NCBI GenBank assembly: GCA_947632355.1
Contig: CANROY010000001.1
Location: forward strand, 2,040 to 66,039
DNA from: an uncultured Bacilli bacterium
Lineage (GTDB): Bacteria > Bacillota_I > Bacilli_A > RF39 > UBA660
Reading direction: 5' to 3'
Length of the DNA stretch: 64,000 nucleotides
Positions 16,534 to 62,239 of this stretch are shown here, in pieces (the first letter of the stretch is position 1; each line of letters opens with the position of its first letter). The translations under genes and the position numbers were made by a program. The notes below the pieces were generated by a model. That model saw only the letters and a program-made list of their open reading frames with translations, made no database searches and was not told the DNA's origin.

Positions 16534-16562
16534 TTGACAAATTCGTGTAAACCTGCTATAAT
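16534..16562 (+). promoter_or_regulatory. Consensus sigma-A promoter TTGACA-17-TATAAT
   Basis: Perfect -35 TTGACA (16534-16539), 17-bp spacer, perfect -10 TATAAT (16557-16562). Confidence 0.8.
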
Positions 16563-16568
16563 GTAGGC

Positions 16569-17057
16569 ATGTGGTGCATTATTCTAGTCACCAAAATAAT
16601 ATGAAGATAGGGCTAAAAATCTATCAATTGTGCGAAGGCACTTTATATATTCTGCTTTCTTCGCCCAGAGGAGGGTGGATATATAATTTAAGATTTAAGG
16701 AAAGTTATAATGGCATATAACCAACCTCCTTTTATCGATGCAAAGAAACGATTAAAGCACATGTCGTGCGTGGTAATGTGGGATATCTTTTGAAAACATT
16801 ACTGCAAAAGCGAATAAGTATTAGAATGGGTGTTTGGGAAAACCTCTAGAGTGTCAACATCACAAAGATTAAGGTACGGACTAAGTGGCAATCGAGTAAT
16901 TAAAATGGTGACATTTAATTATTTTCCATAATGAGAAATCACCTTAGGGTAACCGAAGGCGAGAAAATAGAGAAATTCAACTCGACCTAAGCCGTAAAAT
17001 TAATTTGTGAGAAACCACTTTTAAGTTGTATAGAAAAGTTCTTCGGAACTTTTTTTC
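16569..17057 (+). ncRNA. Candidate ~490-nt structured non-coding RNA (or long cis-leader) of unknown class
   Basis: Consensus promoter upstream; no ORF over 30 codons on either strand; locally GC-enriched (~38% vs ~20% for neighbouring intergenic DNA); ends in a clean UUCG-tetraloop terminator (17034..17057) 19 nt before the next gene. Confidence 0.5.
17034..17057 (+). terminator. Rho-independent terminator AAAAGTTC-TTCG-GAACTTTT followed by T-run
   Basis: 8-bp stem, UUCG loop, T7 tail. Confidence 0.8.
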
Positions 17058-30134: not shown

Positions 30135-30945
30135 TTAATCTGCAGCAAGAGTAGTATAACCTGAACCTGCAGCAACATCTAATTTAACAGATATATCCTT
30201 ACCACTATCTTTAGATGTTTGATCAGTTTGTGCATTTGGATATTTTACTACTAAATAATATACTTTTGAACTTTCTCCATCTTTAGTATTTAAAGTTCTT
30301 CCACCTAAATTATTTTGTTTAATTTTTGTTTTGGCCTCTTTCAAAGGATCACTAGTTAAAGTACCCTCTTCTTCACTGTACTTAATGCTATTATCAGTAC
30401 TTTGAGTATTTTTGTCAATTTTTTGGCTTTCTTGTCCATTTTTCAAATCTCCATAAGCTATCAATTCACCATTAGCACCTTGAACAGCACTTCATATAGA
30501 TTCTGCATCACAACATTCTCCCGTATTATAAATATCACTAGTATTTCCTTGATCTGCATACCAATAATATATATTTGGTCCAACCGTTTGTTCTTTTAAT
30601 GAACAAGTTGTTATTTTATCAAATCCACCAGCATCTGTTGCAACAGATAAATCACCAATCTTAGATTTTATCATCCATAATTCCCACTCTAAATCAGTAT
30701 TTGTTAAATTGGTATAAGTGATTTTTAAATTAAAAGTTCCTTTATAATCATTTGCATCAGTACGTTCTTGTTTCGAAATTGTAGCTGTTGCTTCATAGAT
30801 TCCTAATCCTCCGGGATAATCTAACATATTTAATACTTCACCTGTACTAGTAAAGTTTAAATTTGCTCCATTCATTTTTTGAGTAGTTGTATTAGCTGAA
30901 CTACTTGCTCCCTCAGTTTGAGTTGATGCTACAAAGTATGCGAAA
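30135..30945 (-). pseudogene. 5'-truncated, promoterless, nonsense-containing mosaic duplicate of the TasA-like gene 32601..33485
   Basis: 30563-30945 is ~99% identical to 33027-33410 but the match stops exactly at the FAYF signal-peptide motif (no signal, start or promoter). In-frame TGA at 30489-30491 (AESI*SAVQG). The 3' half (30135-30560) is only ~70% identical, giving a diverged C-terminal domain. Confidence 0.7.
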
Positions 30946-31058: not shown

Positions 31059-32258
31059 ATGCTTAAAAGAGAAAATTATCTAGAAAAAATAAGAGAATTT
31101 TATTCATCTGACATTATTAAAGTCATAATTGGTATGAGAAGATGTGGTAAATCCGTATTATTAAAACAAATAATTGAAGAAATAAAAGACAGTGGAATTA
31201 ACAATCAACATATTATATACATAAATTTTGAAGATGTTTCTTATTCTTCAATTCAAGATTATAAAAATTTAAACAATTTTATAAAAGATAAAATAGTAGA
31301 TAACAAAAAATATTACTTGTTTTTTGATGAAATTCAATTTGTAAATGAATGGGAAAAAGCAATTAACTCTTTTAAAGCTACTTTAAACGTTTCTATTTTT
31401 ATAACGGGTTCCAACTCAAAACTATTATCGAGTGAACTTGCAACCCTTCTCTCCGGCAGATATGTAAGTTTTAAAATTAATCCCTTTTCATTCAAAGAAA
31501 TAGTTAAATTAAAAAATTTAACAGATCCAAAAGAAATAGAAGATGCTTTTAATGACTACTTAATGTGGGGTGGTATGCCTCAAAGATTTGAATATCAATC
31601 AGAAGAAGCGAGAAATAATTACTTGATGGATGTTTTCAATTCAATTATATTAAAGGATATAATAAAAAGAAATAATATCTCAAATGTTACATTATTTGAA
31701 AGAGTAATGGAATATTTAGTTACCAATCCATCTCAAACATTTTCTCCTAAAAACATGTTAAATGAGTTTGAAAAGGAAAAAATACCTATATCAACAAAAA
31801 CAGTATATGAATGTTTAGACTATGCATTATCAGCGATGCTATTTTCAAAAGTATCTTTATATGATATAAGAGGGAAAAAGATACTTTCTAGAAAAGACAA
31901 GTATTATTTAACGGATTTAGGATTAGGCCAAATTCTAAATACAAACAAAAAAACTCAATATGGAGCTTATTTAGAGAATATTGTCTATAATGAATTAATT
32001 GTAAGAGGTTATAATGTAAGTATCGGTAATAATAATGGAAAAGAAATTGATTTTGTAGCTACAAAGCATAATCAAAAAGAATATTATCAAGTAACATTTA
32101 CTTTAGCTGAAAAAACCTGTGAAGAAAGAGAATTTGGAGCTTATGAATCTATTAAAGATAACTATCTTAAGTACGTAATTTCAACTGATAAACTTGATTA
32201 TTCTCAAAATGGAATTATTCATAAAAATATAATTGATTGGTTATTAGAAGAAGACTAG
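31059..32258 (+). CDS. AAA+ ATPase with C-terminal DUF4143 domain
   Basis: Walker A GMRRCGKS, Walker B LFFDEIQ; typical ~400-aa ATPase (DUF4143) architecture. Confidence 0.75.
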   Translation: MLKRENYLEKIREFYSSDIIKVIIGMRRCGKSVLLKQIIEEIKDSGINNQHIIYINFEDVSYSSIQDYKNLNNFIKDKIVDNKKYYLFFDEIQFVNEWEKAINSFKATLNVSIFITGSNSKLLSSELATLLSGRYVSFKINPFSFKEIVKLKNLTDPKEIEDAFNDYLMWGGMPQRFEYQSEEARNNYLMDVFNSIILKDIIKRNNISNVTLFERVMEYLVTNPSQTFSPKNMLNEFEKEKIPISTKTVYECLDYALSAMLFSKVSLYDIRGKKILSRKDKYYLTDLGLGQILNTNKKTQYGAYLENIVYNELIVRGYNVSIGNNNGKEIDFVATKHNQKEYYQVTFTLAEKTCEEREFGAYESIKDNYLKYVISTDKLDYSQNGIIHKNIIDWLLEED

Positions 32259-32600: not shown

Positions 32601-33485
32601 TTAATCTTCAGGTGTATATAATACTGAATTTCCTTCTCCATCAATTTCAAGTTTAACACTAATTGCTTTTCCAGCATCGGTAGATTGGTCATCTTTATTA
32701 TTTGGATATTTTACTACTAAGTAGTATACTTTAGAATCTTCACCTGTAGTAGTATTTAAAGTTCTTCCACCTAATTGATTACTAGTAATTCCCTCTTTTT
32801 CTGACTTTATAGGGTCACTACTATCACTAAGAGTTTCTCCAAACTTAATTCCTGATTCATCTCCATTAGTAGAACTACTAGTAATAGCTTTATCTGTTTG
32901 TCCATGTTTTAAATCTCCATAGGCAATTAATGAACCACTAGCATCTTTAACAGCATTTCTGATTGCTTCCGCATCACAACGTTCTCCTGCATTATAATTA
33001 TCATTTGGATCGCTAGCATCTGCATACCAATAATATGTATTTGGTCCAACAGTTTGTTCTTTTAATGAACAAGTTGTTATTTTATCAAATCCACCAACAT
33101 CTGTTGCAACAGATAAATCACCAATCTTAGATTTTATCATCCATAATTCCCACTCTAAATCAGTATTTGTTAAATTGGTATAAGTGATTTTTAAATTAAA
33201 AGTTCCTTTATAATCATTTGCATCAGTACGTTCTTGTTTCGAAATTGTAGCTGTTGCTTCATAGATTCCTAATCCTCCGGGATAATCTAACATATTTAAT
33301 ACTTCACCTGTACTAGTAAAGTTTAAATTTGCTCCATTCATTTTTTGAGTAGTTGTATTAGCTGAACTACCTGCTCCCTCAGTTTGAGTTGATGCTACAA
33401 AGTATGCAAAGGTTGCTCCTACAACTGATACTAATAAAGTAGCGATTGCTATTACTGTTAGTAATATTGTGTTTCTTTTTTCCAT
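32601..33485 (-). CDS. TasA/camelysin-like secreted protein with SipW-cognate class signal peptide (VVGATFAYF)
   Basis: N-terminal TM plus GATFAYF motif characteristic of SipW-processed proteins; paralogous to 28518..29057 and to the pseudogene copy 30135..30945. Confidence 0.65.
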   Translation of the reverse strand: MEKRNTILLTVIAIATLLVSVVGATFAYFVASTQTEGAGSSANTTTQKMNGANLNFTSTGEVLNMLDYPGGLGIYEATATISKQERTDANDYKGTFNLKITYTNLTNTDLEWELWMIKSKIGDLSVATDVGGFDKITTCSLKEQTVGPNTYYWYADASDPNDNYNAGERCDAEAIRNAVKDASGSLIAYGDLKHGQTDKAITSSSTNGDESGIKFGETLSDSSDPIKSEKEGITSNQLGGRTLNTTTGEDSKVYYLVVKYPNNKDDQSTDAGKAISVKLEIDGEGNSVLYTPED

Positions 33486-33697
33486 AATATTTTATATCCT
33501 CCTTACAATAAAAATCTTATCAAATTAAATGGTTTTATGCAATACCTTTTTTGAATATTTTATGAATTTTATGCTTTTTTACATATTTTTGGTTCTTTTT
33601 CACTCTATACTTTTAAAATTGTGGATGAGTTCTAATTACACATATATTATTTCAATTTGAAGTTTCATTTTAAGGAGCTTCAAAATTTTATTATCAC

Positions 33698-33725
33698 TTT
33701 TTTGGTTCCAATTTTGAACCAAAAA
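33698..33725. repeat. Palindromic element, family B (TTTTTGGTTC-CAATTTT-GAACCAAAAA)
   Basis: Perfect 10-bp arms; member of the 33.7-35.1 kb palindrome array. Confidence 0.7.
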
Positions 33726-33738
33726 TCAATATACTATT

Positions 33739-34614
33739 TTATGACTTTTTACTTTCTATTTTTTCTAACAATGACTCTTTTACAATTTCATCTTCTAATA
33801 AATTGATAGAAAATGTTTTTTCTCCAATATGATTTAAAGAAGTTCCACAATGGTAGATAATTTCTTTATCTAATATAAAATAACGGTCATGGAATGTATT
33901 ATCATAAATTACTTTTAGATTATGATATTGTCGATTATACTTTTCTATATCAAGTTCGTGTAATAAACTGCTTTCTTTTACAATTAACGTTACTTCTATA
34001 TTTAATTCTTTTATATAATCTAATATAGTTTTATCGGCGTAACCATCTATGATTACAAGTTCTTTTTTAGCACTTTTAAAGATATCAACTACTTTTGAAT
34101 AAGCATCATAGATTTGACCATTAAAATAAATTTCATTCGTTTTTTTCTTTTCTTCAAATTTGGAAAATGACTCTTCTAATAAATTTATCCTTTTATTATC
34201 TTCTATGACTAAATTATTAATATATTTTTGTTCTATTAAATTTGTACTTATATATTTTTTCATTGCTACAAAGGCATCCATAATTCTGATACTGACTTCG
34301 GTTGCAATTTTTGATTTTAATATTGTAGCAAGCATAGCAACGCCTTGTTCAGTAAAAACTCTACTATTATATCTTCTACCACCATATTGTTTTAAACTTG
34401 AGGTCGCAATTTACGACCTCAAGTTTTCTTCTTCTATATTATTTAAAATCCAAGAAAATCTTTCAGGAAATTTCTCAATATTTCTATATACTGCTTCATT
34501 AATTCTCTTGGTTTCAACTTGATAAAGCCTTGCTAAATCACTATCGAGCATTACTTGCTTTCCCCTTATTTCATAAATTAAATTTTCTACTTTTTCTTTT
34601 GTTATTTCGTTCAT
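33739..34614 (-). pseudogene. ORF6N-domain (KilA-N-like antirepressor family) gene inactivated by a CAA-to-TAA nonsense mutation at 34411-34413
   Basis: N-terminal IYEIRGKQVMLDSDLARLYQVETKRINEAVYRNIEKFPERF (ORF6N). Same frame continues past the stop (NLRS*IATSSLKQYGGRRYNSRVFTEQGVAMLATIL...) into ORF 33739..34335. Confidence 0.7.
34394..34426. repeat. Palindromic element, family A, inside the ORF6N gene (CTTGAGGTCG-caattta-CGACCTCAAG); encodes NLRS*IATSS
   Basis: 10-bp perfect arms. The C-to-T change that creates the stop is also the only mismatch to a full 13+1+13 palindrome. Confidence 0.75.
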
Positions 34615-34634
34615 AACTACTTATCTCTTTCTAT

Positions 34635-34656
34635 TTTTTGGTCCCAAACTGGAACC
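34635..34656. repeat. Palindromic element, family B, degenerate (TTGGTCCCAAACTGGAACC)
   Basis: One arm mismatch relative to 34822..34851. Confidence 0.5.
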
Positions 34657-34698
34657 TTAGAATTAGATATAATAACTTTCTAATTCCATCAATTGTTT

Positions 34699-34731
34699 CA
34701 ACTTGAAGTCACAAATTGGGACTTCAAGTTT
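34699..34731. repeat. Palindromic element, family A (CTTGAAGTC-acaaattgg-GACTTCAAG)
   Basis: Minus-strand frame reads NLKSQFVTSS followed by a stop. Confidence 0.75.
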
Positions 34732-34760
34732 ACTTATTGCAAATTATATAACGTTACTTA

Positions 34761-34790
34761 CACTTAAGGTCGAAAATTTTGGTCTTAAAG
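34761..34790. repeat. Degenerate A-like element (CTTAAGGTCGAAAATTTTGGTCTTAAAG)
   Basis: Partial arm similarity to family A. Confidence 0.4.
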
Positions 34791-34821
34791 AATTCCATTC
34801 ATAATCTCTACCCACTTTTCT

Positions 34822-34851
34822 ATTTTTTTGGTCCCAGTTTGGGACCAAAAC
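34822..34851. repeat. Palindromic element, family B (TTTTGGTCCCA-gtt-TGGGACCAAAA)
   Basis: Perfect 11-bp arms with T/A-run flanks. Confidence 0.75.
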
Positions 34852-34880
34852 TTATTAGTTTTTAATTTCATCAAACATTT

Positions 34881-34914
34881 CATCTTGAAGTCGCAATTTG
34901 CGACTTCAAGTTTT
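34881..34914. repeat. Palindromic element, family A (CTTGAAGTCGCAA-t-TTGCGACTTCAAG)
   Basis: Perfect 13-bp arms; minus-strand frame reads NLKSQIATSR*. Confidence 0.8.
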
Positions 34915-34928
34915 ATTTTTCTATCTTC

Positions 34929-34959
34929 TTTTTTTTGGTCACAAATTGTGACCAAAAAA
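34929..34959. repeat. Palindromic element, family B (TTTTTTGGTCACAA-a-TTGTGACCAAAAAA)
   Basis: Perfect 14-bp arms; core GTCACAAATTGTGAC. Confidence 0.8.
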
Positions 34960-34974
34960 CAACTATTAGTCTAT

Positions 34975-35001
34975 TTCAAGGTTTCATTTTGAAACCTTGA
35001 A
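34975..35001. repeat. Palindromic element, hybrid/C type (TTCAAGGTTTCA-ttt-TGAAACCTTGAA)
   Basis: Perfect 12-bp arms. Confidence 0.7.
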
Positions 35002-35043
35002 ACTTTGCATTCTTTTTTATAAAGTGAGATGCAAATTTAACAC

Positions 35044-35077
35044 TAACTTGAAGTTCCAATTTGGAACTTCAAGTTTA
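35044..35077. repeat. Palindromic element, family A (CTTGAAGTTCCAA-t-TTGGAACTTCAAG)
   Basis: Perfect 13-bp arms; minus-strand frame reads NLKFQIGTSS*. Confidence 0.8.
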
Positions 35078-35184
35078 CTCTTTGCAATTTCTAAAACATA
35101 ATAATACTTCCTTTCTTAAAGTTGCTATAATAACAAAAAAAGTTTAAATTTTTTGTCGATTTAAGGACATAAAAAAAAGAAGAA

Positions 35185-35853
35185 TTAATCTTCTCTTCGA
35201 CCAAAAATAAGAATTAAACGTATGAGTTCTAAAGCACTTGCTAATACCCCTGCTACATAAGTTCCTGCTGCTGCTTTTAACATAGAAGAAACACCTTCTT
35301 GTTCATCAGTATTTGCTAACTTTAAGGTATCAATTTCTTTTTTAGCACGACGACTGGCATCAATCTCTACAGGAAGGGTTACAAGTTGAAAAATAAGTCC
35401 TGTTCCAACAAGAGTAATGCCAAGCCATATCATTTCAAAAGATTCAGCAAGTAATCCAATAAAAAGAACTAAATAAGAAAAAGTGGTAGCAAAGTGAACA
35501 ACAGGATAAAGGAAACTTCGAAGTCTCATATACGTATAGCCTTCTTTATCTTGTATAGCGTGTCCACATTCGTGAGCAGCAACTGCTAAAGAAGCAATAC
35601 TACTACCGTGGAATACTTCTTTTGATAAACGAACAACTTTTCTTTTTGGGTCATAATGGTCCGTTAAGTTTCCATTTACTTCTACAATATAAATATCTTT
35701 TAAATCATTTTGATCAAGTATTTTTCTTGCTACTTCAAAACCAGTTATTTTTCCTTCATTTTCTATAGTTCGATATTTACTATAACTACTATTCACTATG
35801 AAACTTGCAATAGCAGGAATAATAAGCATTAGTATTAATATAAGTAAATCCAT
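35185..35853 (-). CDS. Zinc metallopeptidase (membrane-associated neutral Zn-protease family, HExxH)
   Basis: AHECGHAIQ HExxH motif; N- and C-terminal TM helices. Confidence 0.75.
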   Translation of the reverse strand: MDLLILILMLIIPAIASFIVNSSYSKYRTIENEGKITGFEVARKILDQNDLKDIYIVEVNGNLTDHYDPKRKVVRLSKEVFHGSSIASLAVAAHECGHAIQDKEGYTYMRLRSFLYPVVHFATTFSYLVLFIGLLAESFEMIWLGITLVGTGLIFQLVTLPVEIDASRRAKKEIDTLKLANTDEQEGVSSMLKAAAGTYVAGVLASALELIRLILIFGRRED

Positions 35854-62079: not shown

Positions 62080-62239
62080 ATTTCCTCCTTTTATATTTTT
62101 GAAATAGAAAAGCTCTTTTATGGGAAAAAGAGCTTATAAACATAAGTTACTTACTTTTCCCTCGGTAGGATTATTAAGATTACTCCCCTACTGTCTTTGG
62201 TAATCGGCTTTTCTATTACGTATTATATTAAATAATCCC
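62080..62239 (-). promoter_or_regulatory. rplJ 5' leader (expected L10(L12)4 autoregulatory leader region)
   Basis: 160-nt GC-enriched untranslated region between rplA and rplJ, as in other Firmicutes; structure not verified. Confidence 0.4.

What the first reader, a model, noticed from the sequence alone, without database searches (positions are those of the whole stretch)
33655..35080. Array of at least ten ~30-bp palindromic elements sharing the core GTCnCAAnTTGnGAC; one copy sits inside, and encodes the conserved motif of, a decayed ORF6N antirepressor-like gene
**What the sequence shows**
- Two families of near-perfect palindromes alternate at 48-85-bp spacing in a non-coding stretch.
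- Family A is AACTTGAAGTCGCAA-t-TTGCGACTTCAAGTT. Family B is TTTTTTGGTCACAA-a-TTGTGACCAAAAAA.
- Both share the core GTC-N-CAA-NTT-G-N-GAC and differ only in flank type.
- One family-A copy lies inside the ORF6N pseudogene. There it encodes, in frame, NLRS*IATSS, which (as far as I recall) is that protein family's most conserved motif, NLRSQ(I/F)(A/V)TSS.
- The extragenic family-A copies also read NLKSQFVTSS*, NLKSQIATSR* and NLKFQIGTSS* in one frame, each bounded by stops.

**Interpretation**
- A 27-31-nt perfect palindrome that coincides with a conserved peptide motif and is also copied about ten times outside genes is not expected by chance.
- Possibility 1: a MITE/REP-like (BIME-style alternating) mobile palindrome family that originated from the ORF6N gene.
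- Possibility 2: operator or recombination sites recognised by the KilA-N/ORF6N DNA-binding protein itself.
- Possibility 3: an insulator array of bidirectional hairpin terminators, since the family-B copies are flanked by T/A runs.
Basis: partly seen in the sequence, partly recalled or inferred. Interest (0 to 1): 0.85.

Follow-up and report, generated by a model that had tools for sequence, protein, structure and literature searches.

The report
Self-encoded hairpin palindromes of ORF6N genes
The palindromes are real: they are extra copies of a DNA hairpin that nearly every ORF6N gene, in all bacterial phyla sampled, carries inside its own coding sequence and keeps base-paired even at the cost of amino-acid changes, a feature for which I found no earlier description and whose function is still inferred.

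Summary
Window 33656-35075 holds 11 palindromes of 23-33 nt. One lies inside an ORF6N gene that is broken by a single TAA.

The main finding is wider than the window. The palindrome belongs to the ORF6N family as a whole:
- **Unbiased sample.** In 105 distinct ORF6N genes chosen without reference to the motif, the best 31-nt palindrome has 12.9 of 15 pairs. Synonymous recoding gives 8.05.
- **Codon choice.** Motif codons are fixed: Leu TTG 52/57, Phe/Ile ending in T 57/57.
- **Compensatory changes.** 11 of 14 stem pairs show changes on both sides, many of which change amino acids.
- **Extra copies.** They sit just upstream of ORF6N start codons and just after stop codons, in several phyla.

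In this window the array is a patchwork of decayed pieces of a small mobile ORF6N-PLD cassette (candidate phage-defence family PDC-S05). It sits between the cassette's conserved leader and the gene. Only the hairpins have stayed intact.

Best explanation, which is inferred: the hairpins are cis-acting sites bound by the dimeric, MerR-like ORF6N protein itself.

The terminator idea is rejected. The REP/MITE idea is weak. "Only decayed fragments" is half right.

I found no Rfam family and no paper describing this.

The parts
35045..35075 (.). Family-A palindrome AACTTGAAGTTCCAATTTGGAACTTCAAGTT. It is the most distal copy of the array, 15+1+15 nt and perfect.
   Evidence: I17, 100% complementary; 12/12 pairs. 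Reads NLKFQIGTSS* on the minus strand.
34974..35002 (.). A' palindrome TTTCAAGGTTTCATTTTGAAACCTTGAAA. The outer stem is flipped relative to family A (TTCAAGG/CCTTGAA).
   Evidence: 12/12 pairs. The same stem type forms the in-gene copy of relative L288.
34931..34959 (.). Family-B palindrome TTTTTTGGTCACAAATTGTGACCAAAAAA, perfect.
   Evidence: I23, 100%; 12/12 pairs. T-run 5' and A-run 3' on both strands.
34884..34912 (.). Family-A palindrome CTTGAAGTCGCAATTTGCGACTTCAAGTT.
   Evidence: 12/12 pairs. Together with its flanks it is 83% identical over 54 nt to the in-gene copy region 34444-34391.
34824..34850 (.). Family-B palindrome TTTTTTGGTCCCAGTTTGGGACCAAAA. In gene orientation it is followed by a decayed copy of the ribosome-binding site, start codon and first codons of the gene.
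   Evidence: 11/12 pairs; 34846-34792 matches 34656-34604 at 75%.
34764..34790 (.). Degenerate A' palindrome (CTTAAGGTCGAAAATTTTGGTCTTAAAG). Its GTCGAAAA apex resembles that of relative L281.
   Evidence: It falls below the 9/12 threshold used. The comparison is with GTCGAAAATTTCGAC in L281.
34700..34730 (.). Family-A palindrome AACTTGAAGTCACAAATTGGGACTTCAAGTT, with one mismatch.
   Evidence: 11/12 pairs. With its flanks it is 74% identical over 85 nt to the in-gene copy region 34446-34365, including the ...LKQYGGRRY coding flank.
34634..34656 (.). Proximal family-B palindrome, imperfect, centred about 31 nt upstream of the ORF6N start codon and immediately before the ribosome-binding site.
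   Evidence: Relatives carry a palindrome at the same position, -35 from the ATG in L281 and L288. Across phyla, 15 loci have centres 23-37 nt before the ATG.
34394..34426 (.). In-gene palindrome AAACTTGAGGTCGCAATTTACGACCTCAAGTTT. It encodes NLRS*IATSS. The nonsense change also breaks one stem pair.
   Evidence: (I19). It is the family-wide element.
33739..34614 (-). ORF6N-coiled-coil-PLD-like gene (PDC-S05 family) with one in-frame TAA at 34413-34411.
   Evidence: Pfam ORF6N E = 2.4e-19. Intact 292-aa homologues. PADLOC PDC-S05 E = 1.1e-89 for P0001. Fold evidence.
33698..33725 (.). Family-B palindrome TTTTTTGGTTCCAATTTTGAACCAAAAA. Its 3' edge lies 14 nt downstream of the stop codon (centre about 27 nt).
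   Evidence: 11/12 pairs. A post-stop copy recurs in L281 (+14), L283 (+19) and Legionella plasmid L291 (+18).
33656..33684 (.). Weak A'-like palindrome (TTTGAAGTTTCATTTTAAGGAGCTTCAAA) at the 3' edge of the cassette.
   Evidence: (9/12 pairs). The pair 33742-33630 (B plus A') is duplicated in the upstream array at 34974-34860 at 65% over 120 nt.
35089..35163 (-). Conserved cassette leader. It holds promoter-like elements (TCGACA ... TGTTATTAT), a Shine-Dalgarno sequence and the mini-ORF ATG TTT TAG (35099-35091).
   Evidence: 88% identical to L281 4797-4869. 91% identical to L288, and recognisable in L283 and L287. In L287 the same Shine-Dalgarno sequence and ATG start the ORF6N gene directly.

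Best explanation
**Shown**
- The elements are copies of a roughly 27-31-nt hairpin-forming palindrome: a 3-nt apex inside a conserved CA-NNN-TG, and a stem of about 12 bp.
- The palindrome is an intrinsic nucleic-acid feature of ORF6N genes.
- It lies in the coding sequence for the variable loop between the two halves of the ORF6N domain.
- It is kept base-paired by compensatory substitutions, including substitutions that change amino acids.
- Extra copies lie outside the gene at recurrent positions: just before the start codon, often as short arrays, and just after the stop codon.
- In this window an ORF6N-PLD cassette of about 1.5 kb sits between a peptidase gene and a pilin-like gene. The cassette is mobile among chromosomal sites in relatives.
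- Its 8-copy upstream array lies between the cassette's conserved leader and the gene. The array is a patchwork of decayed duplicates of cassette pieces in which only the hairpins have stayed intact.

**Inferred**
- The hairpins are the cis-acting sites of the ORF6N protein itself, a dimeric MerR/RacA-like winged-helix protein.
- The protein recognises the conserved apex in the context of a stem, either as extruded DNA or as a symmetric duplex.
- It uses the sites in and around its own gene to control its own expression, or to assemble a complex on its own locus.
- The in-gene copy keeps the site and the protein inseparable when the cassette moves.

The confidence given (0.45) is for the whole statement including the inferred reader and role. 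For the 'shown' part alone I would put it at about 0.9.
For: **Family-wide and unbiased**
- 105 distinct ORF6N linkers were taken from viral and metagenome contigs. They were selected with peptide patterns outside the motif.
- The best palindrome averages 12.9 of 15 pairs against 8.05 after synonymous recoding. 81% exceed the maximum of 200 nulls.

**Codon choice at the motif**
- Leu TTG 52/57, against 19% elsewhere in the same genes.
- Gln CAA 52/57, against 50% elsewhere.
- Phe/Ile third base T 57/57, against 45% elsewhere.
- The same holds in genes with G+C of at least 0.55.

**Covariation**
- 88.8% of cells are paired against 74.1% in shuffles. 173 cells change on both sides against 55. 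11 of 14 pairs have changes on both sides; 0 of 500 shuffles reach the observed values.
- The third base of the Ser codon pairs with the second base of the Val/Ala/Gly codon in 83 of 84 sequences, using three pair types.
- Three genes read the palindrome in another frame or as a different peptide.

**Within one locus**
- Copies differ at inner stem positions yet each stays complementary (window, L081, L288).

**Position of extragenic copies**
- 15 of 17 extragenic copies in the unbiased loci are upstream, and 12 of them lie 30-143 nt before the domain start.
- In 15 loci across phyla the centre is 23-37 nt before the ATG.
- Post-stop copies occur in L281, L283, the Legionella plasmid and the window.

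**DNA rather than sense RNA**
- G-T pairs are not enriched over A-C: 19 against 43 in-gene, 19 against 24 extragenic.

**The protein**
- The palindrome-coded peptide falls in the least confident loop of the model (pLDDT about 44).

**Cassette mobility and leader**
-.

**Patchwork nature of the array**
-.
Against: - No binding data exist. The identity of the factor that reads the hairpin is inferred only from co-location and from the protein's fold.
- A homodimer on duplex DNA does not explain why positions that tolerate any base pair are nevertheless kept complementary in every copy of one locus. This points to intrastrand pairing, which is unusual for MerR-like proteins.
- Extragenic copies are only slightly more similar to the in-gene copy of their own locus than to those of other loci (8.08 against 8.74 differences of 24). 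Lineage-specific recognition is therefore weakly supported.
- Only about 11% of unbiased loci have a strong extragenic copy. The in-gene copy must therefore have a role of its own.
- In this lineage the array lies downstream of the conserved promoter-like leader, so it is probably transcribed. An RNA-level role is not excluded.
- The gene in this window is inactivated, so any protein-dependent role here would need a paralogue elsewhere in the genome.
Confidence: 0.45

Rival explanations
1. RNA-level element. The hairpins act in the transcript: as 5'-UTR and 3'-end stabilisers or processing sites, or as an RNA ligand or antidote array for the downstream protein. The layout would resemble a type III toxin-antitoxin locus (promoter, repeats, gene).
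For: - In this lineage the array lies between a conserved promoter-like leader and the gene's ribosome-binding site, so it should be part of a 5' UTR of about 480 nt.
- One copy sits just before the Shine-Dalgarno sequence and one just after the stop codon.
- The gene family is a candidate defence gene.
Against: - Sense-strand G-U pairs are not enriched over A-C: 19 against 43 in-gene and 19 against 24 extragenic. G-U pairs are rare.
- No U-tail follows any copy in the sense direction.
- In L120 the palindrome starts 3 nt after a canonical -10 box, so the transcript would probably lack part of the 5' arm. In L081 the array lies upstream of the best promoter.
- The copies are neither tandem, equal in length nor near-identical, unlike type III antitoxin repeats.
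Confidence: 0.2
2. REP/BIME- or MITE-like selfish palindromes that arose from the ORF6N motif and spread on their own, or recombination joints used when cassettes insert next to each other.
For: - Two types alternate in an intergenic array.
- 28 solo copies lie in fragments (up to 8 kb fetched) with no detectable ORF6N gene, some as clusters such as L007 and L031.
- The cassette sits at different chromosomal sites in close relatives.
- The array is built from duplicated cassette pieces whose junctions fall at palindromes.
- Extra in-frame copies occur inside ORF6N linkers.
Against: - No copy lies elsewhere in the 64-kb window.
- Most extragenic copies lie within about 150 nt of an ORF6N gene, at fixed positions.
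- No transposase or recombinase is seen in the cassettes.
- No target-site duplications or terminal inverted repeats were identified.
- A selfish origin does not explain the near-universal retention of the in-gene copy.
Confidence: 0.15
3. Nothing functional outside the gene. The extragenic copies are only decaying fragments of duplicated ORF6N genes, and palindromic symmetry is kept by a passive process such as repair within transient hairpins.
For: The flanks of the extragenic copies are homologous to gene and cassette pieces at 65-83% identity.
Against: - The palindromes have diverged in sequence about as much as their flanks (about 78% against 74% in one aligned unit). Yet each keeps 11-12 of 12 pairs through changes on both sides.
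- The same positions relative to start and stop codons recur in unrelated phyla.
- Low-G+C palindromes persist in genomes of 59-67% G+C.
Confidence: 0.07
4. An insulator array of bidirectional intrinsic terminators.
For: The consensus scan terminator-like sites against 0.4 expected. All are on the + strand, which is antisense to the ORF6N gene.
Against: - Family B has the T-run before the stem and the A-run after it on both strands, so the runs pair with each other.
- No site is called on the gene's sense strand.
- The T-rich tails of family A are ordinary for a genome of 29.5% G+C.
- In-gene copies in other phyla have no T-run.
Confidence: 0.04

Closest known systems
parS inside spo0J/parB (ParB-parS), recalled from memory
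   Same: A short palindromic site lies in or next to the gene of the DNA-binding protein presumed to read it. It is conserved across phyla, with further copies nearby.
   Different: - The parS symmetry is read on duplex DNA, and parS is not reported to covary as a stem.
- parS does not encode the protein's most conserved motif.
- ORF6N is not a ParB fold.
- Binding is not shown here.
pSK1 Par and RacA (MerR-like winged helix plus coiled coil, binding arrays of repeats)
   Different: - There is no sequence homology.
- Their sites are not hairpin-covarying palindromes and are not inside the coding sequence.
- The function here is probably not plasmid partition.
Lambda O protein and ori-lambda iterons (also phiX174 gene A, pT181 repC, terminase pac sites), recalled from memory
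   Same: Cis-acting, dyad-symmetric sites lie in the coding sequence of the protein that uses them. In lambda they lie in an inter-domain linker, and their number varies.
   Different: - Those are replication or packaging initiators.
- No replication function or AT-rich unwinding region is evident here.
- Those sites are lineage-specific rather than conserved across phyla.
REP/BIME elements and their RAYT transposases
   Same: Imperfect palindromes of about 30 nt form alternating intergenic arrays that flank a gene encoding a nucleic-acid-binding protein.
   Different: - REPs are dispersed in hundreds of copies and are extragenic by definition.
- RAYT is an HUH Y1 transposase.
- Here the copies cluster at ORF6N genes, and the founding copy is coding.
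Rickettsia palindromic elements and the coding palindromes of hairworm mitochondria (PMC6649704)
   Same: Palindromic DNA is embedded in frame in protein-coding genes, in permissive parts of the protein.
   Different: - Those are insertions into many unrelated genes within one lineage.
- Here a single palindrome is tied to one protein family across phyla.
Type III toxin-antitoxin loci (ToxIN)
   Same: The layout is promoter, then repeats, then a gene, in a defence context.
   Different: - ToxI repeats are near-identical tandem direct repeats of 34-36 nt, processed by an endoribonuclease toxin.
- None of these features was met here.

Membership tests
ORF6N domain family (Pfam PF10543) | Match to the Pfam profile above its gathering score | tested here: met
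   The N-terminal fragment scores 69.9 bits (cut-off 27.8), E = 2.4e-19. All 120 listed homologues carry PF10543.
PDC-S05 (PADLOC candidate single-gene defence family) | Match to the PADLOC profile over the full length | tested here: met
   P0001 (93% identical to the window protein) matches PDLC04869 at E = 1.1e-89 over residues 6-290. Defence activity was reported for one representative with a RhuM domain, not for this protein.
PLD/HKD nuclease superfamily (C-terminal domain) | PLD fold and the HxKx4D...GSxN motif | tested here: inconclusive
REP/BIME elements | Many dispersed extragenic copies across the genome | tested here: not met
   No copy lies outside 33656-35075 in the 64-kb window. 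The whole genome was not available.
REP/BIME elements | Associated RAYT (HUH Y1 transposase) flanked by the repeats | tested here: not met
   The flanked gene is ORF6N-PLD, not a Y1 transposase. No transposase appears among the called genes of the related cassettes. The rest of the window was not scanned for RAYT.
Intrinsic (Rho-independent) terminators | G+C-rich stem followed by a U-run on the transcribed strand | tested here: not met
   Family B has the T-run 5' and the A-run 3' on both strands. No terminator-like site is called on the gene's sense strand. The 6 calls are all antisense.
Integron attC sites | 57-141 nt imperfect hairpin with RYYYAAC / GTTRRRY cores and extrahelical bases, next to an integron integrase | tested here: not met
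   The elements are 23-33 nt and near-perfect. The flanks outside AAC...GTT are not complementary. No integrase appears among the neighbouring genes.
Type III toxin-antitoxin repeat arrays | Near-identical tandem direct repeats of fixed period upstream of an endoribonuclease toxin | tested here: not met
   Spacing is irregular (43-72 nt), the copies are divergent and each is a palindrome. The protein is a winged helix plus a PLD fold.
Any described RNA family (Rfam 15) | Covariance-model match at the gathering score | tested here: not met
   No match at the gathering score in the window or in 12 related loci. At E up to 10, only chance-level hits to unrelated families.
Palindromic operator of a homodimeric regulator | Specific binding of the regulator to the duplex site near its promoter | not testable with these tools
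   The position near start codons and promoters and the dimeric DNA-binding fold are compatible. Compensated variation at non-specific stem positions within one locus is not expected for a plain duplex operator.

The most novel reading that the evidence does not exclude
ORF6N proteins and their hairpin form a self-contained protein-ligand pair. Every gene encodes, in the loop of its own DNA-binding domain, the DNA or RNA stem-loop that the protein binds. In the defence cassettes, the flanking hairpin array would act as a cis antidote or sensor that holds the PLD-like effector in check until infection disturbs it. In the strongest form of this reading, the wing-tip residues (Val/Ala/Gly and others) that are dictated by the stem sequence are the same residues that read the stem.
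Probability: 0.15. Interest if true: 0.9.

Novelty: new variant of a known kind. Interest (0 to 1): 0.78.

Why it matters
- ORF6N is a very large family. The family is found in phages, plasmids, defence islands and most phyla.
- Its "most conserved protein motif" turns out to be conserved largely because of the DNA that encodes it. That changes how the family's alignments, domain boundaries and evolutionary rates should be read.
- It gives a concrete and cheap experimental handle on a family whose function is unknown: a 31-nt element, with natural compensatory variants. One branch of the family was recently reported to protect against phages.
- It is also a clean natural case of overlapping constraints, with a coding sequence and a nucleic-acid structure co-evolving. 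Such cases are rare in bacteria outside Rickettsia-type insertions.

Tried and rejected
- **Chance.** Rejected by shuffles.
- **Amino-acid conservation alone.** Rejected by synonymous recoding and codon counts.
- **Sense-strand RNA hairpin.** Not supported by the G-U against A-C counts, but not excluded.
- **Bidirectional terminators.** Rejected from the polarity of the runs.
- **Known RNA families.** None found.
- **Literature.** No paper holds the core sequences. The 11 papers that mention ORF6N do not appear to deal with the palindrome, judged from titles and abstracts only. A search on KilA-N, palindrome and hairpin returned only analogies.
- **Solved structures by sequence.** None.
- **Source genome and strain polymorphism.**
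  - An exact-protein look-up of the neighbouring peptidase found nothing, and the look-up of P0002 also found nothing.
Genome-wide copy counts in the source organism could therefore not be made, and the organism is known only as a low-G+C bacterium carrying OLE RNA.
- **Lineage-specific matching of upstream and in-gene copies.** Only a weak signal.
- **Within-locus permutation test.** Partly circular, because the copies were selected for being palindromic. I rely instead on copies defined by their conserved outer arms and apex (L081, L288).
- **Promoter in the leader.** The consensus scan did not call it. The promoter reading rests on conservation in five relatives and on L287. The spacing between the -35-like and -10-like boxes is 21 nt, which is long.
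Full report
**1. The observation**

Window 33656-35075 holds eleven palindromes of 23-33 nt.
- Family A has the form AACTTGAAGTC-N-CAA-N-TTG-N-GACTTCAAGTT. Copies lie at 35045-35075, 34884-34912 and 34700-34730. A fourth lies inside a gene at 34394-34426.
- Variants with a flipped outer stem (TTCAAGG...CCTTGAA) lie at 34974-35002. A degenerate copy lies at 34764-34790 and a weak one at 33656-33684.
- Family B has the form T-run, GGTC-N-CAA-N-TTG-N-GACC, A-run. Copies lie at 34931-34959, 34824-34850, 34634-34656 and 33698-33725.

This is more than chance.
- The shared core with up to two mismatches occurs seven times in the 64-kb window, all in this locus. The expectation is 1.4, and none of 100 shuffles reached seven.
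- Eight of the ten strong palindromes of the whole window are here.
- Across 1.4 Mb of window plus fetched loci there are 335 strong palindromes, against 7 in shuffled sequence.

The gene on the minus strand (34614-33739) is an ORF6N gene (Pfam E = 2.4e-19).
- It has one in-frame TAA at 34413-34411 and reads NLRS*IATSS.
- The gene is otherwise intact. The reconstructed protein is 93% identical to a 292-residue homologue, and the gene DNA is 91% identical to that homologue's gene.

**2. The palindrome belongs to the gene family, at the DNA level**

- The loci come from Bacteroidota, Acidobacteriota, Planctomycetota, Verrucomicrobiota, Nitrospirota, Chloroflexota, Actinomycetes, Proteobacteria, candidate phyla and an archaeon. 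Their G+C ranges from 0.23 to 0.70.
- Of 127 matches, about 90 lie in frame in ORF6N reading frames.
- Those proteins share two conserved halves...RFPEDFMFQL and GGRRYLPYAFTEQGVAMLS.... A linker of 15-52 residues joins them and holds one to three copies of L[KR]SQ[FI][AV]TS, some degenerate.

That scan selected for the pattern, so I drew an unbiased sample.
- I built an alignment with the motif cut out (A1). It was used to fetch loci from viral and metagenome contigs.
- The tool used peptide patterns outside the motif: PxVFTEQG, TKRLNEQVxR and VFTEQGVxML.
- In the 105 distinct linkers obtained, the best 31-nt palindrome has on average 12.9 of 15 complementary pairs.
- The same peptides recoded with each gene's own codon usage give 8.05.
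- 81% of genes exceed the best of 200 recodings, and 102 of 105 have at least 11 pairs.

Codon choice at the motif is fixed.
- Leu is TTG in 52 of 57 genes and never CTN. Elsewhere in the same genes TTG is 19% of Leu codons.
- Gln is CAA in 52 of 57, against 50% elsewhere.
- The Phe/Ile codon ends in T in 57 of 57, against 45% elsewhere.
- The same holds in genes with G+C of at least 0.55.

**3. Pairing is what is conserved**

On the 87 distinct 31-mers (A3), the 14-pair stem behaves as follows.
- It is paired in 88.8% of cells, against 74.1% in column shuffles and 18-43% when the partner column is slid.
- 173 cells carry changes on both sides, against 55 in shuffles.
- 11 of 14 pairs have such double changes. 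None of 500 shuffles reaches the observed values.

Individual pairs and variants.
- The pair four bases from the centre joins the synonymous third base of the Ser codon to the second base of the next-but-two codon. TCA goes with GTG (Val), TCG with GCG (Ala), and a C-ending codon with GGN (Gly). It is Watson-Crick in 83 of 84 sequences, using three pair types.
- Many double changes alter amino acids on both arms:
  - NWRSQIVTSN = AATTGG...CCAATT
  - LRCQIGTS = TTGAGGTGCCAAATTGGCACCTCAA
  - LKSQIVISS, where AAA pairs with ATT
  - LTSQFAMS
  - LRSQIVTLK, where TTA pairs with TTA
- Three genes keep the palindrome but read it in another frame or as another peptide: GLITNCDKF, EVVAKCDNLP and SNSSQFVMSS.
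- A relative 77-78% identical to this window's protein (P0009, L288) has the flipped-stem version, SRFQFGTLN.
- The pair next to the centre is complementary in only 63% of sequences. The element is therefore a stem of about 12 bp closed by A-T and C-G, with a 3-nt apex that is A or T at its centre in 82 of 84. That central base is what makes the residue Ile or Phe.

**4. DNA or RNA**

- Non-Watson-Crick cells show no excess of G-T over A-C in the sense orientation. The counts are 28 against 46 overall. Oriented by gene, they are 19 against 43 in-gene and 19 against 24 extragenic.
- G-U is rare as an intermediate between G-C and A-U.
- This is not the signature of a sense-strand RNA helix. It fits selection on DNA, which is strand-symmetric. 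Related sequences inflate some of the counts, so this is only moderate evidence.

**5. Extragenic copies have recurrent positions**

- In the unbiased loci, 15 of 137 have a strong extragenic copy. 15 of the 17 copies are upstream, and 12 lie 30-143 nt before the start of the domain.
- Anchored on start codons, 15 loci from several phyla have the centre 23-37 nt before the ATG, directly ahead of the ribosome-binding site.
  - In L120 the palindrome begins 3 nt after a canonical TTGACT-17-TACAAT promoter.
  - In L223, L248 and L254 it begins about 13-15 nt after a -10-like box.
  - In L081 a four-copy array lies upstream of the best promoter.
- Arrays like the one in this window recur: L081 has four upstream copies plus one in-gene, L288 four plus one, L281 three plus one plus one post-stop, and L060 two plus one.
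- A copy 14-19 nt after the stop codon occurs in L281 and L283, and on a conjugative plasmid of Legionella pneumophila. There it has the same TTAAGG/CCTTAA stem as the in-gene copy.
- Within one locus, the copies differ at inner stem positions while each stays complementary. In L081 the inner stems are GTTTCAA/TTGAAAC, GTCACAA/TTGTGAC and GTTCCAA/ATGGAAC, between identical outer arms. L288 and the window behave the same way.
- A position that accepts any base pair but must stay complementary is what an intrastrand stem predicts. A plain duplex operator does not predict it.
- Extragenic copies are only slightly closer to the in-gene copy of their own locus than to those of other loci: 8.08 against 8.74 differences of 24, permutation p = 0.007.
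- 28 solo copies lie in fragments (up to 8 kb fetched) with no detectable ORF6N gene, including in genomes of 59-67% G+C.

**6. What the locus in this window is**

The closest relatives of the gene lie in different chromosomal neighbourhoods.
- L281: between an amidoligase gene and murG.
- L283: between a short-chain dehydrogenase gene and an AAA_21-RloB gene pair.
- L287 and L288: other contexts again.
- The gene therefore travels as a small cassette.

All five cassettes share a leader.
- The leader holds TCGACA or TTGACA, then TGnTA(T/G)TAT, then a Shine-Dalgarno sequence and an ATG.
- In L287 that ATG is the start codon of the ORF6N gene, and there is no array.
- In the window, L281 and L288 the ATG is followed by TTT and a stop codon (TAG or TAA). 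The hairpin array comes next, then a second ribosome-binding site and the real start codon. In L283 the ATG opens a short reading frame that runs through its single upstream palindrome.
- The array holds three copies in L281, four in L288 and eight in the window.

The window's array is a patchwork of decayed copies of three pieces of the cassette.
- The in-gene palindrome with its coding flanks: 34931-34878 and 34751-34668 match 34446-34365 at 83% and 74%.
- The proximal palindrome with the ribosome-binding site and first codons: 34846-34792 matches 34656-34604 at 75%.
- The 3' pair of palindromes: 34974-34860 matches 33742-33630 at 65%.

But the palindromes have drifted in sequence about as much as their flanks while keeping 11-12 of 12 pairs. 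Something maintains the pairing.

**7. The protein**

A model of the intact homologue (mean pLDDT 73) shows the following.
- A helix of 54 residues, most simply a dimerisation coiled coil.
- The overall layout resembles TrmB/TrmBL2.
- The palindrome-coded residues (66-75) fall at the end of a helix and in the least confident loop of the model (72-80, pLDDT about 44). This loop is inserted between the two strands of the wing.
- That is the same place where the family shows length variation and extra motif copies. This fits a permissive loop that hosts a DNA element.

The family matches the PADLOC candidate defence family PDC-S05 (E = 1.1e-89). The neighbouring AAA_14/DUF4143 gene matches PDC-S01. 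One PDC-S05 representative, a RhuM-domain protein, was reported to lower plating of T7, T5 and T4 in E. coli (bioRxiv 10.1101/2024.09.26.614923).

**8. Mechanism**

Shown:
- a hairpin-forming palindrome present across the whole family;
- maintenance of its complementarity by compensated changes;
- satellite copies at fixed positions around the gene;
- a mobile cassette.

Inferred:
It would recognise the conserved apex (TC-N-CAA-W-TTG-N-GA) on a stem.
- The sites before the start codon, inside the gene and after the stop codon would let the protein control or coat its own locus.
- Placing one site inside the gene keeps site and protein linked during transfer.

The closest precedents, recalled from memory and not tested here, are:
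- parS inside spo0J;
- the ori-lambda iterons in the linker of the O gene;
- the internal operators of lac and gal;
- the centromere repeats upstream of pSK1 par.

Rivals:
- an RNA-level role (the array is probably transcribed in this lineage);
- a REP/MITE-like or recombination role (solo copies, patchwork array, mobile cassette);
- passive decay.

The terminator idea fails because family B has its T-run 5' and its A-run 3' on both strands, and no copy has a U-tail in the sense direction.

**9. Novelty**

- No Rfam family matches in the window or in twelve related loci.
- No paper in the library holds the core sequences.
- The eleven papers that mention ORF6N do not appear to deal with the palindrome, judged from titles and abstracts only.
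- As far as these searches reach, a coding palindrome that covaries across a whole protein family in most phyla, with satellites at its own gene's borders, has not been described.
- Its kind (a cis site inside the gene of a DNA-binding protein; a coding palindrome) has precedents. I therefore rate it a new variant of a known kind, with a substantial unknown in the mechanism.

**10. Limits**

- The source organism could not be identified. It is a low-G+C genome (29.5%) that carries an OLE RNA.
- Genome-wide copy number and strain polymorphism in the source genome could not be measured.
- All functional statements are inferences.
- The in-locus permutation test is partly circular.
- The promoter in the leader rests on conservation, not on a consensus hit.

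Noticed in passing
window 16555-17034 (+): A full-length OLE (ornate large extremophilic) RNA: Rfam RF01071, 233.5 bits, E = 1.2e-64. From my own knowledge, this RNA is known from anaerobic or extremophilic Firmicutes, which gives a clue to the source organism.
   Followed up: no
window 31059-32258 (+): An AAA_14 + DUF4143 ATPase gene that matches the PADLOC candidate defence family PDC-S01 over its full length (E = 1.1e-148). It lies 1.5 kb from the ORF6N (PDC-S05) cassette, so the region looks like a small defence islet.
   Followed up: partly
window 30432-30945 and 32898-33410: A 515-nt duplication at 94% identity. A truncated copy (30135-30875, split reading frames) and a full copy (32601-33485, 294 aa, no Pfam hit, N-terminal hydrophobic pilin-like signal) of the same gene flank the PDC-S01 gene. 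This suggests that the PDC-S01 gene was inserted or acquired between duplicated copies.
   Followed up: partly
window 35099-35091 (-); L281 4860-4868; L288 about 440-448: A conserved Shine-Dalgarno sequence followed by a two-codon mini-ORF (ATG TTT TAG/TAA) in the cassette leader. In relative L287 the same ATG is the start codon of the ORF6N gene itself. The mini-ORF is therefore probably the stranded original start codon, left behind when the hairpin array was inserted.
   Followed up: partly
window 35171-35198 (-): A hairpin plus T8 run (GAAGAGAAGATTAATTCTTCTTTTTTTT) that overlaps the 3' end of the zinc-peptidase gene, immediately before the left edge of the cassette. In L281 the cassette likewise begins at the stop codon of the upstream gene.
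   Followed up: no
proteins P0007 (422 aa) and P0010 (413 aa): Relatives with two ORF6N domains in tandem ahead of the same coiled-coil and PLD-like module. Both domains of P0007 carry the motif peptide (LRSQIVTLK and NLRSKFSTSS). The first domain of P0010 lacks a recognisable one. The DNA of these genes was not examined.
   Followed up: no
L007 922-3505; L031 5095-5235; L030 2796-2823: Clusters of ORF6N-type palindromes in fragments with no ORF6N domain hit, including five copies in 3.6 kb of a Vicinamibacteria contig with 63% G+C. The fifth copy sits at the very start of an ORF6N gene that runs off the contig end.
   Followed up: partly
L271 1025-2181; L252 991-2181: Two adjacent ORF6N genes per locus with different in-gene stems. 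In L271 the copy upstream of gene 1 resembles the in-gene palindrome of gene 2 rather than that of gene 1, which hints at cross-talk between paralogues.
   Followed up: no
window 62097-62218 (-): Ribosomal protein L10 leader (Rfam RF00557, 78.3 bits), upstream of a ribosomal-protein gene cluster.
   Followed up: no
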